Source of the DNA: a virus
Reading direction: 5' to 3' (one strand)
Length of the DNA stretch: 64,000 nucleotides
UHGV virus genome: UHGV-0307316
This document shows, piece after piece, positions 52,426 through 64,000 of the stretch (positions within the stretch are counted from its first letter, which is position 1; each line of letters begins with the position of its first letter). The position numbers and the translations under genes are program-made. The notes below the pieces were generated by a model. That model worked only from the letters and a program-made list of their open reading frames with translations, searched no databases and was not told the DNA's origin.

Positions 52426-52696
52426 AGAGAAGTGGGAAATTTTACCATTAGTCAGTGAAGGTGGTAATGGTTGTGAAATGTACATGATACGTGGTCATGT
52501 TCCAGAACCAATTGCACTTGAGATGGTAAACAACTTTACAGATGGTTCTTACAAAGACTTAGGAGAGCCAACTATAAAGCATCAATGGGTAAAACCTGTA
52601 CCAGACAGCACAGGTAACTGTAGTGTACTTTACCACGTTGTAGACCCTGTAAAATGCAAATCTGCAATGGCAGTAACAAACGTAACCTTTGATTGA
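52418..52696 (+). CDS. Hypothetical protein
   Basis: 92 aa ORF. Confidence 0.3.
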   Translation: MAKEKWEILPLVSEGGNGCEMYMIRGHVPEPIALEMVNNFTDGSYKDLGEPTIKHQWVKPVPDSTGNCSVLYHVVDPVKCKSAMAVTNVTFD

Positions 52697-53589
52697 GAGA
52701 CAAAACTATGAAAACATCTATCCGTGTTACAGTTCATTCACCAACTAAAGGGACTCACGAAGAAGAGTTTAACATCGTCCAATTTCCTTCTGGTGAGATT
52801 GGTGGACATTTTTCACCAGAGTTTGTTGATTTTACTGCTTATGCTGCATCATCCATCAACAACGTGATTATGATTATAAAGGGTTATGACAAAGACACAT
52901 TATTTGCTGTGGCACTTGCTAAAGAGGTAATTGATGATTTAGTACCTCATAAGTTTGCTATGAAGACTGCTATCTTTTACTATTTGCCAAATGCACGTTA
53001 CGACCGTCACATGTTTAAAGGTGATGCAGCAGCTTTGAAAGTGTTTGCACAACAGGTTAATGCAATGGGTTTTGATGCAGTCTGTGCAGTTGACCCTCAT
53101 AGTTACGTTCCAGATAACCTTTTCAATTGCTTCCAGAGTATTCCTCAAAAGGAGATTGCAGTCCATTACGCAAATGACCCTCTGATTGATTACTTAGTAG
53201 CCCCAGATGCAGGTGCTTCTAAGAAGATTGCAGAGACTGCTAAAGAGGTGGATAAACCATATATCACAATGTCTAAGGTGCGAAATCTTAAGACTGGAGA
53301 AATCACTGGTATGCGAATCCTTGACGATGTTGATTTGACCGATAAAACCGTCATGATTCTTGATGATATCTGTGATGGTGGTCGAACCTTCGTAGAGGCA
53401 GCTAAACACCTACGTGAAGCAGGTGCAAAACGTGTAGAGCTTTATGTAACACATGGTATCTTCTCTAAAGATGTTGAAAACCTTCTTGACAATGGTATCG
53501 ACCATATTTACACTACAAACTCTTTAGGCGAAGCTAAAGACCGTGGCTTAACACATTACAGTCAAGTTACTGTAGCAAACCTTGATTGA
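52693..53589 (+). CDS. Ribose-phosphate pyrophosphokinase family protein (Prs-like; candidate ADP-ribose pyrophosphokinase Adps)
   Basis: PRPP-synthetase-type C-terminal half: VAPDAGA, phosphoribosyl-binding loop VMILDDICDGGRT, YVTHGIFS. Confidence 0.75.
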   Translation: MRDKTMKTSIRVTVHSPTKGTHEEEFNIVQFPSGEIGGHFSPEFVDFTAYAASSINNVIMIIKGYDKDTLFAVALAKEVIDDLVPHKFAMKTAIFYYLPNARYDRHMFKGDAAALKVFAQQVNAMGFDAVCAVDPHSYVPDNLFNCFQSIPQKEIAVHYANDPLIDYLVAPDAGASKKIAETAKEVDKPYITMSKVRNLKTGEITGMRILDDVDLTDKTVMILDDICDGGRTFVEAAKHLREAGAKRVELYVTHGIFSKDVENLLDNGIDHIYTTNSLGEAKDRGLTHYSQVTVANLD

Positions 53590-53636
53590 AACTTTATATG
53601 GGCTTGAAAGACCCATTTTGAGAGAGAGATTAAAAG

Positions 53637-55418
53637 ATGACTAAATCACTTTATGCAGTACCAGCAGGTTTAAACGCGGATGCTTACAAGTCTGGCCATG
53701 TTTACCAGTACCCTAGTGCAACAGAATACTTGATGTTCAACCTGACACCACGTAGTGACAAATGGTTTAACAGCCCTTTAGCAATTGACGGTGTAGTGGC
53801 TTTTGGTATTCAACGTTTTGTTAAAGATTACTTGATAGACCACTGGAACGCCACTTTCTTTGAACGTGATAAAAAAGAAGCAATTGACGAAATCTTAGAA
53901 GTCATGAATGGTGTTCTGGGTAAAGATGCTATCGGTCGAGAGCATTGGGAAGCACTTCACGACTTAGGTTATCTACCAGTTGAAGTATACGCGGTAGAAG
54001 AAGGTACAGTTGTCCCTATGCGTGTCCCAATGATTGTCTTCCAGAACACTGTTTCAGGTTTCCATTGGGTAGCAGGTTATCTGGAAGATGCTTTCTCTGC
54101 TGAGATTTGGAAGGCTTGCACTATTGCAACTATTGCATTGCATTACAAACGCATCTGTAAGAAGTGGGCTGACCTTACTTGTGACAACGACTTACATCTG
54201 CCCTATCAGTGCCATGACTTTGCTATGCGTGGTATGTCCGGCTTTACTGATGACGCATTTAACGCTGTAGGTCACTTAACCAGCTTTAAAGGAACCGATA
54301 GCTTCCCTGCTGTATACACGGCTAAACGCATCTATGGACAGTCTTACCCAATCTCTGATATTGGTAGTTCTGTACCAGCCACTGAACACTCTGTAATGTG
54401 TGCAAACATTGCTTGGGAAGGTGGTAATGAATTGATTGAAGAAGAAAGACGCTTTAAAGGTGAGTTACAAACCTTCCGTCGTTTCTTAACAGAAACTTAC
54501 CCAACTGGTATTGCAAGTATTGTTTCAGATACTTATAACTTCTGGAGAACTGTGTCAGAAATCTTACCAGCACTCCGTAAAGAAATTATGGAACGTGATG
54601 GTAAACTGGTAATTCGCCCTGACTCTGGAGACCCTGTACATATTGTCACAGGTTATAAAGCAATCCACTTAGAGTGTGCTAAAAAGGCTTATTACGAGCA
54701 CCTAAGCAAGCTTGAAGCCAGCGACACAATGTTGAATGCTGTTCTGAACATGAAGCTTGAAAACATCAACTATGGTATTGCTGGATGGCTACTGTCAGAA
54801 GGCTACGAAATGGTTGTTGACAGAGAAGACTTTGAAGTAGCCGATACAGTGTTGCTGAAAGATGCTTACATCAACGGCTCTGCAAACGTTGTAACACGTC
54901 CTGTAGCGGAGATTGATGGAGCTATTAAGACACTGTACAACATCTTTGGGGGAACTATTAACTCTAAAGGGTTTAAGGTACTGGATGAGCACATTGGCCT
55001 TATCTATGGCGACTCTATCACGCTGGAACGTGCAAACGAAATCCTGAAGCGTCTGTATGAAATGGGTTTTGCAAGCTCTAACGTAGTGTTTGGTGTAGGC
55101 TCTTACACTTACCAGTACATGACTCGTGACACCTTTGCATTTGCTGTTAAAGCAACTCTTGCAAGCATTGGTGGTAAAGAGATTATGCTTGCAAAAGACC
55201 CTAAAACAGATAGTGGTGTTAAGAAGTCTGCTTTTGGTGGTGTAGTACCTATGTGGAATGGTGATAAGTTGAAAGCTGTAGATGGCTATGGATTCCAGAG
55301 CTTTGCAGATGTACTTGAACATCCAGCTTGTGCTCTACGTTTAGTCTTTAGTGACTCTGAGCAGTATGGTTACACATCTCTTGGTGATATTCGAAATAAT
55401 ATTGACAAGCAGCTTTAA
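53637..55418 (+). CDS. Nicotinamide phosphoribosyltransferase family protein (NadV-like; candidate nicotinamide ADPR transferase Namat)
   Basis: 593 aa ORF with NAMPT-like N-terminus (NADAYKSGHVYQYP); immediately downstream of Prs-like gene. Confidence 0.7.
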   Translation: MTKSLYAVPAGLNADAYKSGHVYQYPSATEYLMFNLTPRSDKWFNSPLAIDGVVAFGIQRFVKDYLIDHWNATFFERDKKEAIDEILEVMNGVLGKDAIGREHWEALHDLGYLPVEVYAVEEGTVVPMRVPMIVFQNTVSGFHWVAGYLEDAFSAEIWKACTIATIALHYKRICKKWADLTCDNDLHLPYQCHDFAMRGMSGFTDDAFNAVGHLTSFKGTDSFPAVYTAKRIYGQSYPISDIGSSVPATEHSVMCANIAWEGGNELIEEERRFKGELQTFRRFLTETYPTGIASIVSDTYNFWRTVSEILPALRKEIMERDGKLVIRPDSGDPVHIVTGYKAIHLECAKKAYYEHLSKLEASDTMLNAVLNMKLENINYGIAGWLLSEGYEMVVDREDFEVADTVLLKDAYINGSANVVTRPVAEIDGAIKTLYNIFGGTINSKGFKVLDEHIGLIYGDSITLERANEILKRLYEMGFASSNVVFGVGSYTYQYMTRDTFAFAVKATLASIGGKEIMLAKDPKTDSGVKKSAFGGVVPMWNGDKLKAVDGYGFQSFADVLEHPACALRLVFSDSEQYGYTSLGDIRNNIDKQL

Positions 55419-59649: not shown

Positions 59650-60198
59650 ATGAAGAAATTGATTCTAGGTTTGTGCTTAATGTTTACAGCACACTTATCT
59701 TATGCAGTTGACTGCCCAGAGCTATCAATTAGCCAAAAAGTAAACATGTTAAAAGCTTACCAGTATGGTGAGAACAACATGGGTAAAGGTTGGGGTATCA
59801 CTCTAGCTGCTATAGCCTTACAAGAGTCAGAGTTAGGTCTGAAGGTAGAGAATAAAAAGACACATGATTATGGTATTTTCCAGAATCACTTGAAGACTGT
59901 TGTAAAGCGTAACAAAATTAGTCCTAATATGGCTAAAAAGAAACTCTTAAAAGACTTTAACTATGCTGCGAAGGAAACTCACAAAGAGCTTGAGTTTTGG
60001 ACAAAGGTGCATGGTCAGCCAAAGTCAAAGAAGACTTTACAAAAAGTTTTAGCATCATATAATGCTGGGTATTCGTACAAAATCCCTAAAGCTAAGAAAT
60101 ATTCTCAAGATGTCTATAACAACATGAAAGTCATTGCTCAATGTGAATTTGCAACAAACATTTCTAAGGTAAACCATGAAAAAATTAAAAAAGTCTGA
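59650..60198 (+). CDS. Lytic transglycosylase (SLT domain) with signal peptide; candidate endolysin
   Basis: Signal peptide MKKLILGLCLMFTAHLSYA; SLT motifs QESEL (ES), DYGIFQ (GLMQ-like), SYNAGYS (AYNxG). Confidence 0.7.
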   Translation: MKKLILGLCLMFTAHLSYAVDCPELSISQKVNMLKAYQYGENNMGKGWGITLAAIALQESELGLKVENKKTHDYGIFQNHLKTVVKRNKISPNMAKKKLLKDFNYAAKETHKELEFWTKVHGQPKSKKTLQKVLASYNAGYSYKIPKAKKYSQDVYNNMKVIAQCEFATNISKVNHEKIKKV

Positions 60199-60871
60199 TG
60201 AAGTACTGTGTCATGCTTACGACTTACATCCTCATGAGTTAGGTCTTGATTCCTGTGTATGGACTCCAGAACAGTGTAGGGATTTTGAAGACACTGCAAG
60301 AGAAGTTGTATGCTCACTCGAAGAGTTCCACACATCAGAGCCAATTGTGAATGTTGTAGATAAAGAGACTGGACAAACTATAGGTGTAAGTCGTGATAGC
60401 TTAGTCATAGTCAATAAAGACCTTGTAGAAAAAGGTAACCTCATCTTAGCAGATATTGATGGTGTTCTTACAAATTTTAATCACGAAGATTGCTCAACGG
60501 AATTGACTGATGGGTCATTCTCACAGTACACTAATCTTCTTGACTCTGTAAGAGCAAAACCAACGTATGTCTTTAGTATTATTGATGCAATTGCTAATCA
60601 TGCTGCCATTGGACTCTTGACAGCGAGAGGTGAATCTCAGAGAATACCTACTGAGATGTTTTTAAGGCACAATATAGAGCATGATTACTTGCTTTTTATG
60701 CGTGGTTTTGGAACTAACTCTATAAGTGCAGAAAGTTTGAAAGTGAGGATGATTCAGTCTTGCATTCTTCCTTACTTTAATATAGTATGTTTTATAGAAG
60801 ATACAGAGAAGAATGTTCAGAAGGTAAACAGAATCCTTCCACACATTAAAACCATGTTAGTTAAACACTGA
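60176..60871 (+). CDS. HAD-like hydrolase domain protein (putative phosphatase)
   Basis: HAD motif I-like LILADIDGVLT, motif II-like LLTARGE, acidic motif CFIEDTEKN; N-terminal extension unusual. Confidence 0.35.
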   Translation: MKKLKKSDEVLCHAYDLHPHELGLDSCVWTPEQCRDFEDTAREVVCSLEEFHTSEPIVNVVDKETGQTIGVSRDSLVIVNKDLVEKGNLILADIDGVLTNFNHEDCSTELTDGSFSQYTNLLDSVRAKPTYVFSIIDAIANHAAIGLLTARGESQRIPTEMFLRHNIEHDYLLFMRGFGTNSISAESLKVRMIQSCILPYFNIVCFIEDTEKNVQKVNRILPHIKTMLVKH

Positions 60872-62717: not shown

Positions 62718-62918
62718 ATGGCTGACTTCTGTAAAGACTGTTCTATCGAAATGTTCGGACGTGATACAGGTGACTTAAAAGGTCTTATCACTGAAGATGA
62801 CTTTAAAGCTGGTTATGCAATGCCAGTAATCTGTGAAGGTTGTGGGTGTATCTGGGTAGACCATGAAGGGCAACGTGTAAAACCTTCAGAAGATAAAGAA
62901 TCTTGGGAGAGATGCTAA
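62718..62918 (+). CDS. Zinc-ribbon small protein (hypothetical)
   Basis: CKDC ... CEGCGC cysteine pairs. Confidence 0.3.
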   Translation: MADFCKDCSIEMFGRDTGDLKGLITEDDFKAGYAMPVICEGCGCIWVDHEGQRVKPSEDKESWERC

Positions 62919-63704
62919 ATGGGTATTGTAAAAATCATCAATGGTGATATCTTTGCTGCATTTGATAAAGGTAAGTTTGACATCATTGGTCATGGTTGTA
63001 ACTGCATGAACCTAATGGGCGCAGGTATCGCTGACAAGATTTCTAAACTTTACCCAAAAGCATATGAGACCGATACAGAAGTTTATCTCTATGCAGGTGG
63101 TATAGGTCACAAACCCTGTGAGAATTTACTAGGTAATTTCTCTGTAGCACGCTTAAAACAAGGTCGTATAGCTAACCTTTACACTCAGCTTAAGACTGGT
63201 AAAGATGCCCGATACAGTGCTTTAGAGTCATCTTTGAAGCAACTTAACAGATACTGTGAAGTTAATCAGTTGAAGAAAGTTGGTTTACCTATGATTGGTG
63301 CAGGTATCGGTGGACTTGACCCTCAAGCCGTCACAGTTATCATCAATCAGGTGATGAAGAGTGTAGATGTTTATCTATATGTCTATGAAGGAGAGATGTA
63401 CCACAAGTTACTCTCAGGTTGGAAGAACTACTGTGAACCAGAATACTTTGCAGGTGTAGCAGTGTTCACAGATAACGCAGTTACCCTCTTCAGACGAAGA
63501 AAAGGTAAGATACATCAAAGTAACCCTCCGGTTGAAAAGATGTCTCTAAGTAACGCTCTAGTTACCCACCTGTCAAAGAGCAATCACAGAATTGCTGTAA
63601 CATTTGGTAGTGATGCAGAAGCTTATATCTATGCAAGAACTGATGAGGATATTGAGGCAATCTTCTCTTCACCAGAAGTTACCTTCTTAGACGCAAAGAA
63701 CTAA
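62919..63704 (+). CDS. Macro-domain protein (TARG1/DarG-like ADP-ribosyl hydrolase, putative) with C-terminal unknown domain
   Basis: N-terminal 140 aa resemble TARG1-type macro domains: GDIF...IGHGCNCMNLMGAGIA and GLPMIGAGIGGLD. Confidence 0.5.
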   Translation: MGIVKIINGDIFAAFDKGKFDIIGHGCNCMNLMGAGIADKISKLYPKAYETDTEVYLYAGGIGHKPCENLLGNFSVARLKQGRIANLYTQLKTGKDARYSALESSLKQLNRYCEVNQLKKVGLPMIGAGIGGLDPQAVTVIINQVMKSVDVYLYVYEGEMYHKLLSGWKNYCEPEYFAGVAVFTDNAVTLFRRRKGKIHQSNPPVEKMSLSNALVTHLSKSNHRIAVTFGSDAEAYIYARTDEDIEAIFSSPEVTFLDAKN

Positions 63705-63750
63705 GAAACTCTGTAGGATATTCACAATAGCCTAAGCCTTTCTTATCTGG

Positions 63751-63960
63751 TAAATTTTTCAGGTAAGGAGGGCTTTTTCATTTCAGATTTGTGCAGGTAG
63801 AGTTCTGTAGAGAAATCTATAGAGAAAATTTTGAACTCCAAAGAGAAAATTCATTTTCAAACTGTGCAGGTAATCTCCAAAGAGCTTTTTCATTTTCAAA
63901 ACGTGCAGACCCCGCTCAGGTCGGGCAAGAAAAATCATTTTAGAATTGTGCAGGTAGGTT
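63751..63960 (+). repeat. Array of four direct repeats TCATTTTCA(A/G)A-N2-3-TGTGCAG(G)TA in terminal intergenic tract
   Basis: GTGCAG at 63791, 63864, 63903, 63947, each preceded by (T)TCATTT(T)CA(G/A)A; related TTTTGTGCAGAG at ~59596. Confidence 0.6.
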
Positions 63961-64000
63961 TTTATAGACAGCCAGCCCAACCCCTCTCCCCCTCTTACTC

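What the first reader, a model, noticed from the sequence alone, without database searches (positions are those of the whole stretch)
62919..63704. TARG1/DarG-like macro-domain protein: candidate ADP-ribosylation eraser
The N-terminal ~140 aa carry the glycine-rich phosphate-binding loops of TARG1/DarG-type macro domains (GHGCNCMNLMGAGIA and GLPMIGAGIGGLD), followed by a ~120 aa domain with no recognisable motifs. DarG-type macro domains reverse DarT ADP-ribosylation of thymidine in ssDNA, so a phage copy could neutralise DarTG-like or other ADP-ribosylating defences. It sits in the same block as the NAD-reconstitution candidate.
Basis: partly seen in the sequence, partly recalled or inferred. 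Interest (0 to 1): 0.6.

Follow-up and report, generated by a model that had tools for sequence, protein, structure and literature searches.

The report
AdfM-like phage macrodomain with extra domain
This Felixounavirus gene encodes an enzyme that most likely strips ADP-ribose off phage DNA to defeat the bacterial DarTG2 defence; relatives in phages T4 and PhiKZ were recently shown to do this, and this version carries an extra, fast-evolving tail domain of unknown role.

Summary
The ORF is real (62919..63704, +, 261 aa) and both quoted motifs are present. Residues 1-157 form a macrodomain of the ALC1-like class (TARG1, DarG, SCO6735, Poa1p). It scores above the Pfam cut-off, and the fold matches TARG1 and Taq DarG best.

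The window is a Felixounavirus. The closest characterised relative is T4 Tk.4 (34% identity, E=3e-24, same PHROG 335). A 2025 preprint named Tk.4 AdfM because deleting it sensitises T4 to DarTG2. PhiKZ AdfM (2026) removes DarT2 marks from DNA.

It is also untested for this protein.

- **Active site:** the TARG1/DarG catalytic Lys is an invariant Gln here and in T4 Tk.4. The thymidine-ADPr hydrolase SCO6735 has the same Gln, and there it is essential.
- **C-terminal domain:** residues 158-261 form an orphan domain found only fused to this macro clade in Ounavirinae-type phages. It has no Pfam, PDB or viral-structure match, is unrelated to one DarT-linked DarG-like C-terminal domain, and evolves 2-5 times faster than the macrodomain.
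- **Two alleles:** the gene exists as two ~42%-identical alleles swapped as a clean cassette between near-identical phages.
- **NAD genes:** they lie 7.5 kb away and are not adjacent.

The parts
62919..63704 (+). Complete ORF, 261 aa: AdfM-like macrodomain protein with a C-terminal extension
   Evidence: ORF list and sequence; PHROG 335 E=4.7e-113; 100% aa identity to Felixounavirus LF82P3 and 96.8% nt identity to phage radambza, where it is annotated 'putative phosphatase'
62919..63389 (+). Macrodomain, aa 1-157, ALC1-like (TARG1/DarG/SCO6735/Poa1p) class
   Evidence: Pfam Macro; NCBIfam and PADLOC DarG models match their macro part only; Foldseek top hits are TARG1 and Taq DarG; the clade profile hits TARG1, DarG, SCO6735 and Poa1p at 1e-15 to 1e-18, against 1e-5 or worse for MacroD-type and viral macros
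62988..63032 (+). Loop 1, G24-HGCNCMNLMGAGIA-38. H25 and N28 are invariant. N28 aligns with DarG N22, PhiKZ AdfM N23 and SCO6735 N27
   Evidence: Alignments A1, A3, A4, A5; residue roles from PMC13309987 and PMC9411070
63174..63188 (+). Invariant N86-L-Y-T-Q90 motif. Q90 occupies the position of the TARG1 K84, DarG K80 and PhiKZ K78 catalytic lysine. It is shared with T4 Tk.4 (CFNLYTQ) and equivalent to the essential Gln85 of SCO6735
   Evidence: the HMM alignment pairs NLYTQ with YLITK; PMC9411070
63282..63320 (+). Diphosphate-binding loop 2, G122-LPMIGAGIGGLD-134. TARG1 D125 aligns to G131
63390..63701 (+). Orphan C-terminal domain, aa 158-261, beta-rich (6-7 strands and 2 helices). It is fast-evolving and found only fused to this macro clade
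63734..63785 (+). Terminator-like hairpin plus T-run directly after the gene, marking the end of the rIIA-to-macro transcription block
62930..63890 (.). Approximate extent of the exchangeable allele cassette (ORF, terminator and part of the intergenic repeats), relative to allele-B Felixounaviruses
   Evidence: Sliding identity against L007 falls from about 97% to about 55% at about 62,930 and returns to 98% at about 63,890; per-gene identities; 13 isolates carry allele B, with nothing between 42% and 95% identity
62718..62918 (+). Upstream 66-aa ORF with two CxxC pairs (PHROG 2210, function unknown). Its stop codon directly abuts the macro start codon (TAA ATG). It may or may not be functionally linked
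   Evidence: the same abutting arrangement occurs in L007-L010; a different small CxxC..CxxC ORF abuts the macro gene in L006

Best explanation
The gene encodes a Felixounavirus member of the AdfM (anti-DarT factor, macrodomain) family. These are orphan, antitoxin-like ADP-ribosylglycohydrolases. Proposed mechanism: when infection releases the host toxin DarT2, DarT2 ADP-ribosylates thymidines in single-stranded phage DNA and blocks replication. The basic N-terminal macrodomain (pI about 9) binds the ADP-ribose through its two Gly-rich loops and cleaves the ribose-thymine bond, releasing ADP-ribose and restoring the DNA. Catalysis would be of the SCO6735 type. In that scheme a Gln (Q90), held in place by the conserved Asn (N28), positions the distal ribose for attack by an activated water. 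There would be no TARG1/DarG-type lysine nucleophile. The C-terminal 104-aa domain is an accessory module. Because it evolves 2-5 times faster than the enzyme core and differs most between the two alleles, it most likely sets specificity or adds a second layer of neutralisation, for example by binding DarT or another variable host factor. What is shown: the fold class, the homology to validated AdfMs, the active-site composition, the domain distribution, and the evolutionary rates and allele swap. What is inferred: the substrate, the anti-DarTG2 role of this particular protein, and any role of the C-terminal domain.
For: Class: Pfam Macro scores above its cut-off. DarG is the only NCBIfam and PADLOC model hit; the window protein scores 47.6 bits, higher than the validated T4 AdfM at 36 bits. 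The fold is closest to TARG1 and Taq DarG. The clade profile hits TARG1, Mtb DarG, SCO6735, Poa1p and Taq DarG at 4e-18 to 9e-15, and MacroD-type or viral macros at 1e-5 or worse. Homology to validated anti-DarTG2 factors: T4 Tk.4 at 34% identity, E=3e-24 over aa 3-157, with shared HGCNC, MG[AS]G and NLYTQ motifs. The window protein, T4 Tk.4 and PhiKZ gp104 all have PHROG 335 as best hit. The T4 tk.4 knock-out becomes DarTG2-sensitive. PhiKZ AdfM removes DarT2 ADP-ribose from DNA. Active site: N28 and Q90 are invariant in all 19 clade members. The Gln-type site is catalytically competent on thymidine-linked ADPr-DNA in SCO6735, where Q85A, Q85E and N27S lose activity. Orphan status: no darT gene is nearby. 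The clade is almost absent from cellular genomes, with one genuine hit in 185,579 species genomes. Arms-race signature: two alleles at about 42% identity are exchanged as a clean cassette between phages whose flanking genes are 90-100% identical.
Against: There is no experiment on any Felixounavirus macro protein. The T4 evidence is a preprint and is genetic only. Identity to T4 Tk.4 is 34% and to PhiKZ AdfM 23%. The clade is equally distant from TARG1, Poa1p and DarG, and ALC1-like macrodomains act on several substrates: protein Glu/Asp-ADPr, O-acetyl-ADPr, Appr-1''-p and phosphate-linked nucleic-acid ADPr. The canonical catalytic Lys is absent, and similarity to SCO6735 by single-sequence search is weak (E=0.49), so the shared Gln could be convergent. 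The single-domain T4 protein suffices for the phenotype, which leaves the C-terminal domain unexplained. That domain is not acidic (net charge -4 to +3), so there is no sign of the DNA mimicry that cited papers report for the DarG C-terminal domain. Whether Felixounaviruses are resistant to DarTG2 at all is not known to me.
Confidence: 0.68

Rival explanations
1. It is an eraser of a different ADP-ribosylation mark. It would reverse protein-linked (Glu/Asp) or RNA- or phosphate-linked ADP-ribose added by other host ADP-ribosyltransferase defences or toxins (for example CmdTAC-type mRNA modification), or by a phage-encoded transferase, not DarT2 marks on thymidine.
For: TARG1 is the top sequence and fold match, and it acts on protein and phosphate-linked nucleic-acid ADPr (PMC11833690). 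SCO6735 also de-modifies PARP1 in vitro. The fast-evolving C-terminal domain could target a different partner.
Against: The only phenotypes known for PHROG 335 members are anti-DarTG2. Gln-type SCO6735 was reported inactive in the assays on 5'-phosphate-linked and on 2'-OH RNA ADPr (results text seen; a Discussion sentence in the same paper reads the opposite way for RNA phosphate ends). No ADP-ribosyltransferase is annotated in the 26 kb of the close relative examined.
Confidence: 0.15
2. It is a housekeeping enzyme for ADP-ribose metabolites. It would act as a Poa1p-like ADP-ribose-1''-phosphate phosphatase or an O-acetyl-ADP-ribose deacetylase, clearing by-products of RNA repair or of sirtuin and NADase activity and supporting the phage's NAD economy. 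This is what the database labels 'phosphatase' and 'O-acetyl-ADP-ribose deacetylase' imply.
For: Relatives carry these annotations. Poa1p (6lfu) matches the clade profile at 1.5e-16. A PNK-like gene (60176-60871), Nampt and a PRPP-synthase-like gene are on the same strand within 10 kb.
Against: The labels are inherited from the CDD/Pfam A1pp naming, not from assays (T4 note: 'contains A1pp phosphatase motif'). The NAD genes are not adjacent. A housekeeping role does not predict deep allelic dimorphism with cassette exchange, nor restriction of the clade to phages. The T4 homologue has a defence-specific phenotype.
Confidence: 0.1
3. It is a non-catalytic binder. The protein would sequester ADP-ribose-derived molecules, such as immune signals like Thoeris gcADPR or His-ADPR, or bind ADP-ribosylated targets without hydrolysis, given that the canonical catalytic lysine is missing.
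For: Lys is replaced by Gln at the TARG1/DarG catalytic position. Some records label the protein 'high-affinity ADP-ribose binding module'.
Against: The Asn and Gln needed for catalysis in SCO6735 are invariant. T4 Tk.4, which has the same Thr-Gln site, gives a DarTG2 phenotype. Strong purifying selection on the macro half (dN/dS 0.06-0.19) is compatible with either reading.
Confidence: 0.05

Closest known systems
T4 Tk.4 = AdfM (anti-DarT factor macrodomain; bioRxiv 10.1101/2025.11.20.689424)
   Same: Same PHROG (335). 34% identity over the whole macrodomain (E=3e-24). Identical signature motifs HGCNC, MGxG and NLYTQ, with Gln at the catalytic-Lys position. Orphan gene in a lytic enterobacterial myovirus.
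   Different: T4 Tk.4 is a single 155-aa domain. The window protein has an extra 104-aa C-terminal domain. The genomic contexts differ (tk-vs region against the end of the rII-lysis block). The function of the window protein is untested.
PhiKZ gp104 = AdfM of chimalliviruses (Cell Rep 2026, PMC13309987)
   Same: Phage-encoded orphan macrodomain in PHROG 335. The conserved Asn is present. PhiKZ AdfM is shown biochemically to remove DarT2 ADP-ribose from DNA.
   Different: Only 23% identity (E=3e-4). PhiKZ keeps the DarG-type Thr-Lys (K78) and scores 132.9 bits on the DarG model against 47.6 here. It is a single domain and is imported into the phage nucleus.
Bacterial DarG2 antitoxin (Taq DarG 5m3e/5m31, Mtb DarG 5m3i; NCBIfam NF048014)
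   Same: ALC1-like macro fold, the Asn, the Gly-rich loops, and the predicted substrate (thymidine-ADPr on ssDNA).
   Different: Scores 47.5 bits against a 250-bit equivalog cut-off. The catalytic Lys80 is replaced by Gln. No relation to the C-terminal domain of the one DarT-linked DarG-like protein compared (hhalign probability 0.35%). No adjacent darT.
SCO6735 of Streptomyces coelicolor (PDB 5e3b; PMC9411070)
   Same: ALC1-like macrodomain, not part of a DarTG operon, with Gln at the catalytic-Lys position plus His-x-x-Asn upstream (H24/N27/Q85 against H25/N28/Q90). It cleaves thymidine-linked ADPr-DNA and protects against DarT.
   Different: It is a bacterial chromosomal gene. Sequence similarity is only at class level (profile E=3.9e-17, single-sequence E=0.49). 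The DNA-positioning lysines K34 and K89 appear not to be conserved by motif spacing, though I could not obtain a direct alignment. It has no C-terminal domain.
Human TARG1/OARD1 (4j5r, 4j5s)
   Same: Best single-sequence and fold match (E about 1e-5; Foldseek E=1e-9, target TM 0.83-0.86).
   Different: The K84/D125 dyad aligns to Q90/G131. S35 of TARG1 is Asn here. TARG1 is a eukaryotic protein-ADPr hydrolase.
Yeast Poa1p (6lfu), ADP-ribose-1''-phosphate phosphatase
   Same: Same macro class (profile E=1.5e-16). It is the source of the 'phosphatase' label on the phage genes.
   Different: There is no evidence that the phage clade acts on Appr-1''-p. The single-sequence match covers only aa 17-56.

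Membership tests
Macro domain (Pfam PF01661) | Sequence match above the Pfam gathering threshold | tested here: met
   32.4 bits against a cut-off of 22, aa 25-141 covering profile positions 2-117 of 118
Macro domain (Pfam PF01661) | Three-layer alpha/beta/alpha macro fold | tested here: met
   AF2 model pLDDT 85.5. 237 PDB chains at E<=0.001; the 50 listed are almost all macrodomains. Target TM 0.81-0.86 to TARG1 and DarG
ALC1-like macrodomain class (TARG1/DarG/SCO6735/Poa1p) | Closer to class members than to MacroD-type, PARG-type or viral macrodomains | tested here: met
   Clade profile: class members at 3.6e-18 to 8.8e-15, the best other macro at 1.2e-5, and alphavirus, coronavirus and MacroD types at 2e-4 or worse
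AdfM (phage anti-DarT factor, macrodomain) | Homology to an experimentally validated AdfM | tested here: met
   T4 Tk.4: BLASTP 34% identity, E=3e-24. PHROG 335 is the best hit for the window protein, T4 Tk.4 and PhiKZ gp104
AdfM (phage anti-DarT factor, macrodomain) | Phage-encoded orphan, with no cognate darT next to it | tested here: met
   Neighbours are rIIA, rIIB, lysin, PNK, spanins and small ORFs. No DarT/DUF4433 gene is present
AdfM (phage anti-DarT factor, macrodomain) | [quoted passage not shown] | not testable with these tools
   [quoted passage not shown] No published test was found for any Felixounavirus
DarG2 antitoxin (NCBIfam NF048014 equivalog) | Full-length match above the curated cut-off (250 bits) | tested here: not met
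   47.5 bits; only aa 7-160 match profile positions 4-150 of 338. The PADLOC DarG model likewise matches positions 18-145 of 329
DarG2 antitoxin (NCBIfam NF048014 equivalog) | Catalytic lysine (Taq K80) after the conserved Thr | tested here: not met
   Thr89-Gln90, invariant in the clade. PhiKZ gp104, a Klebsiella DarT-linked macro protein and TARG1 all have Thr-Lys
DarG2 antitoxin (NCBIfam NF048014 equivalog) | Conserved Asn (Taq N22) in loop 1 | tested here: met
   N28 is invariant and aligned to PhiKZ N23 (residue identity)
DarG2 antitoxin (NCBIfam NF048014 equivalog) | C-terminal DarT-binding domain | tested here: not met
DarG2 antitoxin (NCBIfam NF048014 equivalog) | Encoded in an operon with darT | tested here: not met
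   No darT in the window neighbourhood. Compare the Klebsiella plasmid locus L011, where darT overlaps the macro gene
TARG1/OARD1 | Lys84/Asp125 catalytic dyad | tested here: not met
   K84 aligns to Q90 and D125 aligns to G131 in pairwise HMMER, MAFFT and profile alignments
SCO6735-type (Gln-dependent) thymidine-ADPr hydrolase | Gln at the catalytic-Lys position, with the Asn that locks it | tested here: met
   Q90 and N28 are invariant. The equivalence of this position to SCO6735 Q85, DarG K80 and TARG1 K84 comes from PMC9411070. I could not obtain a direct residue alignment to 5e3b
Poa1p-like ADP-ribose-1''-phosphate phosphatase | Phosphatase activity on Appr-1''-p | not testable with these tools
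   There is only class-level similarity. The 'phosphatase' label in the records is an inherited annotation

The most novel reading that the evidence does not exclude
The orphan C-terminal domain is a new, non-homologous functional analogue of the DarG C-terminal domain. It would be a fast-evolving module that binds and blocks DarT2 (or another variable host ADP-ribosyltransferase or defence component), giving a two-layer anti-toxin on one polypeptide. On this reading, the two deeply divergent alleles that Felixounaviruses exchange as a cassette are specificity variants matched to different host DarT lineages. That would be a phage-side counterpart of toxin-antitoxin specificity evolution.
Probability: 0.2. 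Interest if true: 0.6.

Novelty: new variant of a known kind. Interest (0 to 1): 0.4.

Why it matters
Felixounaviruses are widely used as E. coli and Salmonella biocontrol, typing and therapy phages. Knowing that they carry an AdfM-type counter-defence, in two exchangeable versions, helps predict host range on DarTG2-carrying strains. It also offers a natural experiment on how specificity evolves in anti-toxin enzymes. The protein extends the AdfM family to a two-domain architecture. Together with T4 Tk.4, it indicates that the larger enterobacterial-phage branch of the family uses a Gln-type active site, as in SCO6735, and not the DarG lysine. This is relevant to the still unresolved mechanism of thymidine de-ADP-ribosylation. 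About 2,800 of 50,697 phage records carry a macro relative that is mostly mislabelled 'phosphatase', so the annotation could be corrected broadly.

Tried and rejected
1. DarG membership was rejected. The match is below the equivalog cut-off, the Lys is absent, no relation was found to the DarG-like C-terminal domain compared, and there is no darT.
2. TARG1-type catalysis was rejected because neither dyad residue is present.
4. The large multi-stretch hits in that hmmsearch proved to be PQQ/beta-propeller and retroelement repeat proteins, so I treated them as noise. The 'standalone' P0032 is a truncated fusion.
5. The afdb50 fold library was unavailable.
6. A WG/KWG-repeat idea for the C-domain, prompted by the F-D-G-V pattern, got no Pfam support.
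8. A degenerate motif scan of 185,579 species genomes gave 3 hits. One is a real clade member in a phage-like MAG region without DarT, one appears to be chance, and one on a 3-kb contig was not examined. No bacterial ancestor was found.
9. 'VpaE1_ev035' as an evolved derivative of VpaE1 that swapped alleles is not supported, because neighbouring gene content also differs.
10. A functional link to the NAD genes was not supported because they are 7.5 kb apart.
11. PhageMaP (Bas63) and the LeRoux BASEL work were searched for direct data on this gene or on DarTG2 sensitivity of Felixounaviruses, and none was found.

Full report
OBSERVATION. The window carries an ATG-to-TAA ORF at exactly 62919..63704 (+) encoding 261 aa, and both quoted glycine-rich motifs are present at aa 24-38 and 122-134. 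The window is a Felixounavirus. The protein is 100% identical to one in Felixounavirus LF82P3, and the surrounding 2 kb is 96.8% identical to phage radambza. In related records the gene is labelled 'putative phosphatase', 'macro domain protein' or 'O-acetyl-ADP-ribose deacetylase'.

WHAT THE N-TERMINAL HALF IS. Pfam Macro scores 32.4 bits against a cut-off of 22. The only NCBIfam and PADLOC models hit are DarG, and both match only over their macro portion. The NCBIfam score (47.5 bits) is far below its curated cut-off of 250 bits. An AlphaFold2 model built on 19 homologues is confident (pLDDT 85.5, pTM 0.85). Its best PDB matches are TARG1 (E=1e-9, target TM 0.83-0.86) and the Thermus aquaticus DarG macrodomain (E=4e-9, target TM 0.81). 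A profile of 19 clade members hits TARG1, BT1257, M. tuberculosis DarG, SCO6735, yeast Poa1p and Taq DarG at 3.6e-18 to 8.8e-15. Alphavirus, coronavirus and MacroD-type macrodomains score 2e-4 or worse. So aa 1-157 form a macrodomain of the ALC1-like class, roughly equidistant from all of its characterised members.

THE DECISIVE COMPARISON. tblastn shows the macro half in about 2,800 phage records, including the T-even gene next to vs. This is T4 tk.4, annotated 'phosphatase; contains A1pp phosphatase motif'. A November 2025 preprint (10.1101/2025.11.20.689424) found tk.4 as the single transposon hit that is conditionally essential on DarTG2-expressing E. coli. It showed that a clean knock-out sensitises T4 and named the gene adfM. 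Independently, a 2026 Cell Reports paper (PMC13309987) named PhiKZ gp104 AdfM and showed that it removes DarT2-made ADP-ribose from DNA. Its active-site residues correspond to Taq DarG N22 and K80.

The window protein is 34% identical to T4 Tk.4 over the whole macrodomain (E=3e-24) and 23% identical to PhiKZ gp104 (E=3e-4). All three, and the second Felixounavirus allele, have PHROG 335 as best family. It is no longer a new idea, and nobody appears to have tested a Felixounavirus protein.

ACTIVE SITE. Across 19 two-domain homologues, and across a broader 19-member clade set, the invariant residues include H25, G26, N28, C29, M33, G36, A38, N86, L87, T89, Q90, P124, G127 and G129. In MAFFT and HMM alignments, Q90 sits where TARG1 has K84, PhiKZ AdfM has K78 and a Klebsiella DarT-linked macro protein has Lys. 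TARG1 D125 aligns with G131. T4 Tk.4 has the same CFNLYTQ motif, so the Lys-to-Gln change is a trait of this phage clade, including a member with a proven phenotype, and not a defect.

The same substitution occurs in SCO6735. This ALC1-like macrodomain cleaves thymidine-linked ADP-ribose from DNA and protects S. coelicolor against DarT. There Q85A and Q85E abolish activity and N27S nearly does. The authors propose that the Asn locks the Gln, which positions the distal ribose for a water-initiated reaction (PMC9411070). In that paper's assays SCO6735 was inactive on 5'-phosphate-linked and 2'-OH RNA ADP-ribose (PMC11833690). I therefore infer a Gln-type, SCO6735-like mechanism acting on thymidine-ADPr DNA. 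The macro half is basic (pI about 9), which fits a nucleic-acid substrate. I could not obtain a residue-level alignment to 5e3b itself. The single-sequence match is weak (E=0.49), so the shared Gln may be convergent.

All two-domain homologues recovered from metagenomes sit in the same synteny: rIIB, lysin, PNK-like HAD, small ORFs, then macro. The architecture is therefore a feature of Ounavirinae-type phages. The C-domain evolves faster, with dN/dS of 0.29-0.69 against 0.06-0.19 for the macro half. It remains under constraint.

ALLELIC DIMORPHISM. In metagenomic locus L007, the nine genes upstream are 90-100% identical in protein sequence to the window, and the abutting 66-aa ORF is 100% identical. 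The macro protein is only 41% identical: 53% in the macro half and 23% in the C-domain. Nucleotide identity drops from about 97% to about 55% at about 62,930 and recovers to 98% at about 63,890. Thirteen sequenced isolates carry this second allele at 95% identity or more, including BPS17L1, Si3, finno, phiWec172/174/177 and ECML-1. About 200 carry the window's allele, and nothing lies between 42% and 95%. Both alleles keep all catalytic motifs. More distant genera show macro divergence in line with their flanks. A discrete, exchangeable cassette with two deep alleles is what one expects of a counter-defence gene under diversifying pressure. That interpretation is an inference.

CONTEXT. The gene is the last in a co-directional block and is followed by a terminator-like hairpin at 63734-63775. 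A 66-aa ORF with two CxxC pairs (PHROG 2210, function unknown) ends directly before its start codon. Nampt (53637-55418) and a PRPP-synthase-like gene (52693-53589) are real but lie 7.5 kb upstream, separated by rIIA, rIIB, lysin, PNK and spanin genes. So 'same block as the NAD genes' is only loosely true and gives no functional argument. No darT or ADP-ribosyltransferase gene is nearby. A motif scan of 185,579 species genomes found essentially no cellular members of the Thr-Gln clade.

VERDICT. Best explanation (confidence about 0.68): an AdfM-family, Gln-type ADP-ribosylglycohydrolase that removes DarT2 marks from phage DNA, with an orphan, fast-evolving accessory domain. Rivals:
- Erasure of other ADP-ribose marks: 0.15.
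- Poa1p/OAADPr-type metabolite housekeeping: 0.10.
- Non-catalytic binding: 0.05.

The protein is not a DarG or a TARG1 by their defining features. It is a member of the phage AdfM family by homology, in a new two-domain, dimorphic form. Interest is moderate (0.4). The main idea is already published for homologues, and the C-domain and the allele cassette are the parts worth an experiment.

Noticed in passing
window 62930-63890; L007 6012-6934; phage records: The macro gene exists as two deeply divergent alleles (about 42% aa identity) within the genus Felixounavirus. They are exchanged as a clean cassette between phages whose flanks are 92-99% nt identical. 13 isolates carry allele B, about 200 carry allele A, and there are no intermediates.
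   Followed up: yes
window 62718-62918 (+); L006 5810-6001: A 66-aa ORF with CxxC...CxxC (zinc-ribbon-like; PHROG 2210, unknown function, no Pfam) ends at TAA directly before the macro ATG. The same arrangement holds in relatives L007-L010. In the distant locus L006 a different small CxxC..CxxC ORF abuts the macro gene, while L005 has an unrelated 103-aa ORF there. It could be a translationally coupled partner.
   Followed up: partly
window 63778-63968: The intergenic region downstream of the terminator holds 3-4 direct repeats of about 34 nt ending in TCATTTTCAAAnTGTGCAG(GTA), spaced 39-157 nt apart. The strict 22-nt motif occurs only here in the 64-kb window (2 matches against 0.03 expected). 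It could be a cluster of phage promoters or a regulatory or recombination site. The downstream edge of the allele cassette lies inside it.
   Followed up: partly
window 52693-55418 (+): A PRPP-synthase-like gene (298 aa, TTG start) and a 593-aa Nampt (NAPRTase + NAMPT_N) lie here. They appear to be the Felixounavirus NAD-salvage genes. From my own knowledge, Bas63 is the reference for NARP2; the NARP preprint 10.1101/2024.02.11.579819 mentions Bas63 34 times, but I did not read it. They are 7.5 kb from the macro gene and not adjacent.
   Followed up: partly
window 60176-60871 (+): A 231-aa protein in the PHROG 'polynucleotide kinase' family (E=3e-134) has no Pfam hit at E<=0.01. Relatives show weak HAD_PNKP hits. 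It overlaps the end of the lysin-like ORF by 23 nt.
   Followed up: no
L014 6695-7288 (-): A 425-kb contig binned as a 'Candidatus Pacearchaeota' MAG carries a 197-aa member of the phage Thr-Gln macro clade (HGCNC, MGAGIA, NLYTQ) beside a peptide-deformylase-like ORF. This suggests a phage or mis-binned region and not an archaeal gene.
   Followed up: no
L015 (LR699048, VpaE1_ev035) against L016 (KM657822, VpaE1): The phage named VpaE1_ev035 carries macro allele B, while VpaE1 itself carries allele A. Neighbouring gene content also differs, so the name does not imply a simple derivative.
   Followed up: partly
L011 (Klebsiella pneumoniae plasmid NZ_CP124697, 1170-3616): A darT gene overlapping a 371-aa macro-domain gene (Thr-Lys type) sits on an IncFIA/IncFII/IncR mobilizable clinical plasmid next to IS903B. 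This is a DarTG2-like system circulating on plasmids among Enterobacteriaceae, the family that includes the hosts of these phages.
   Followed up: no
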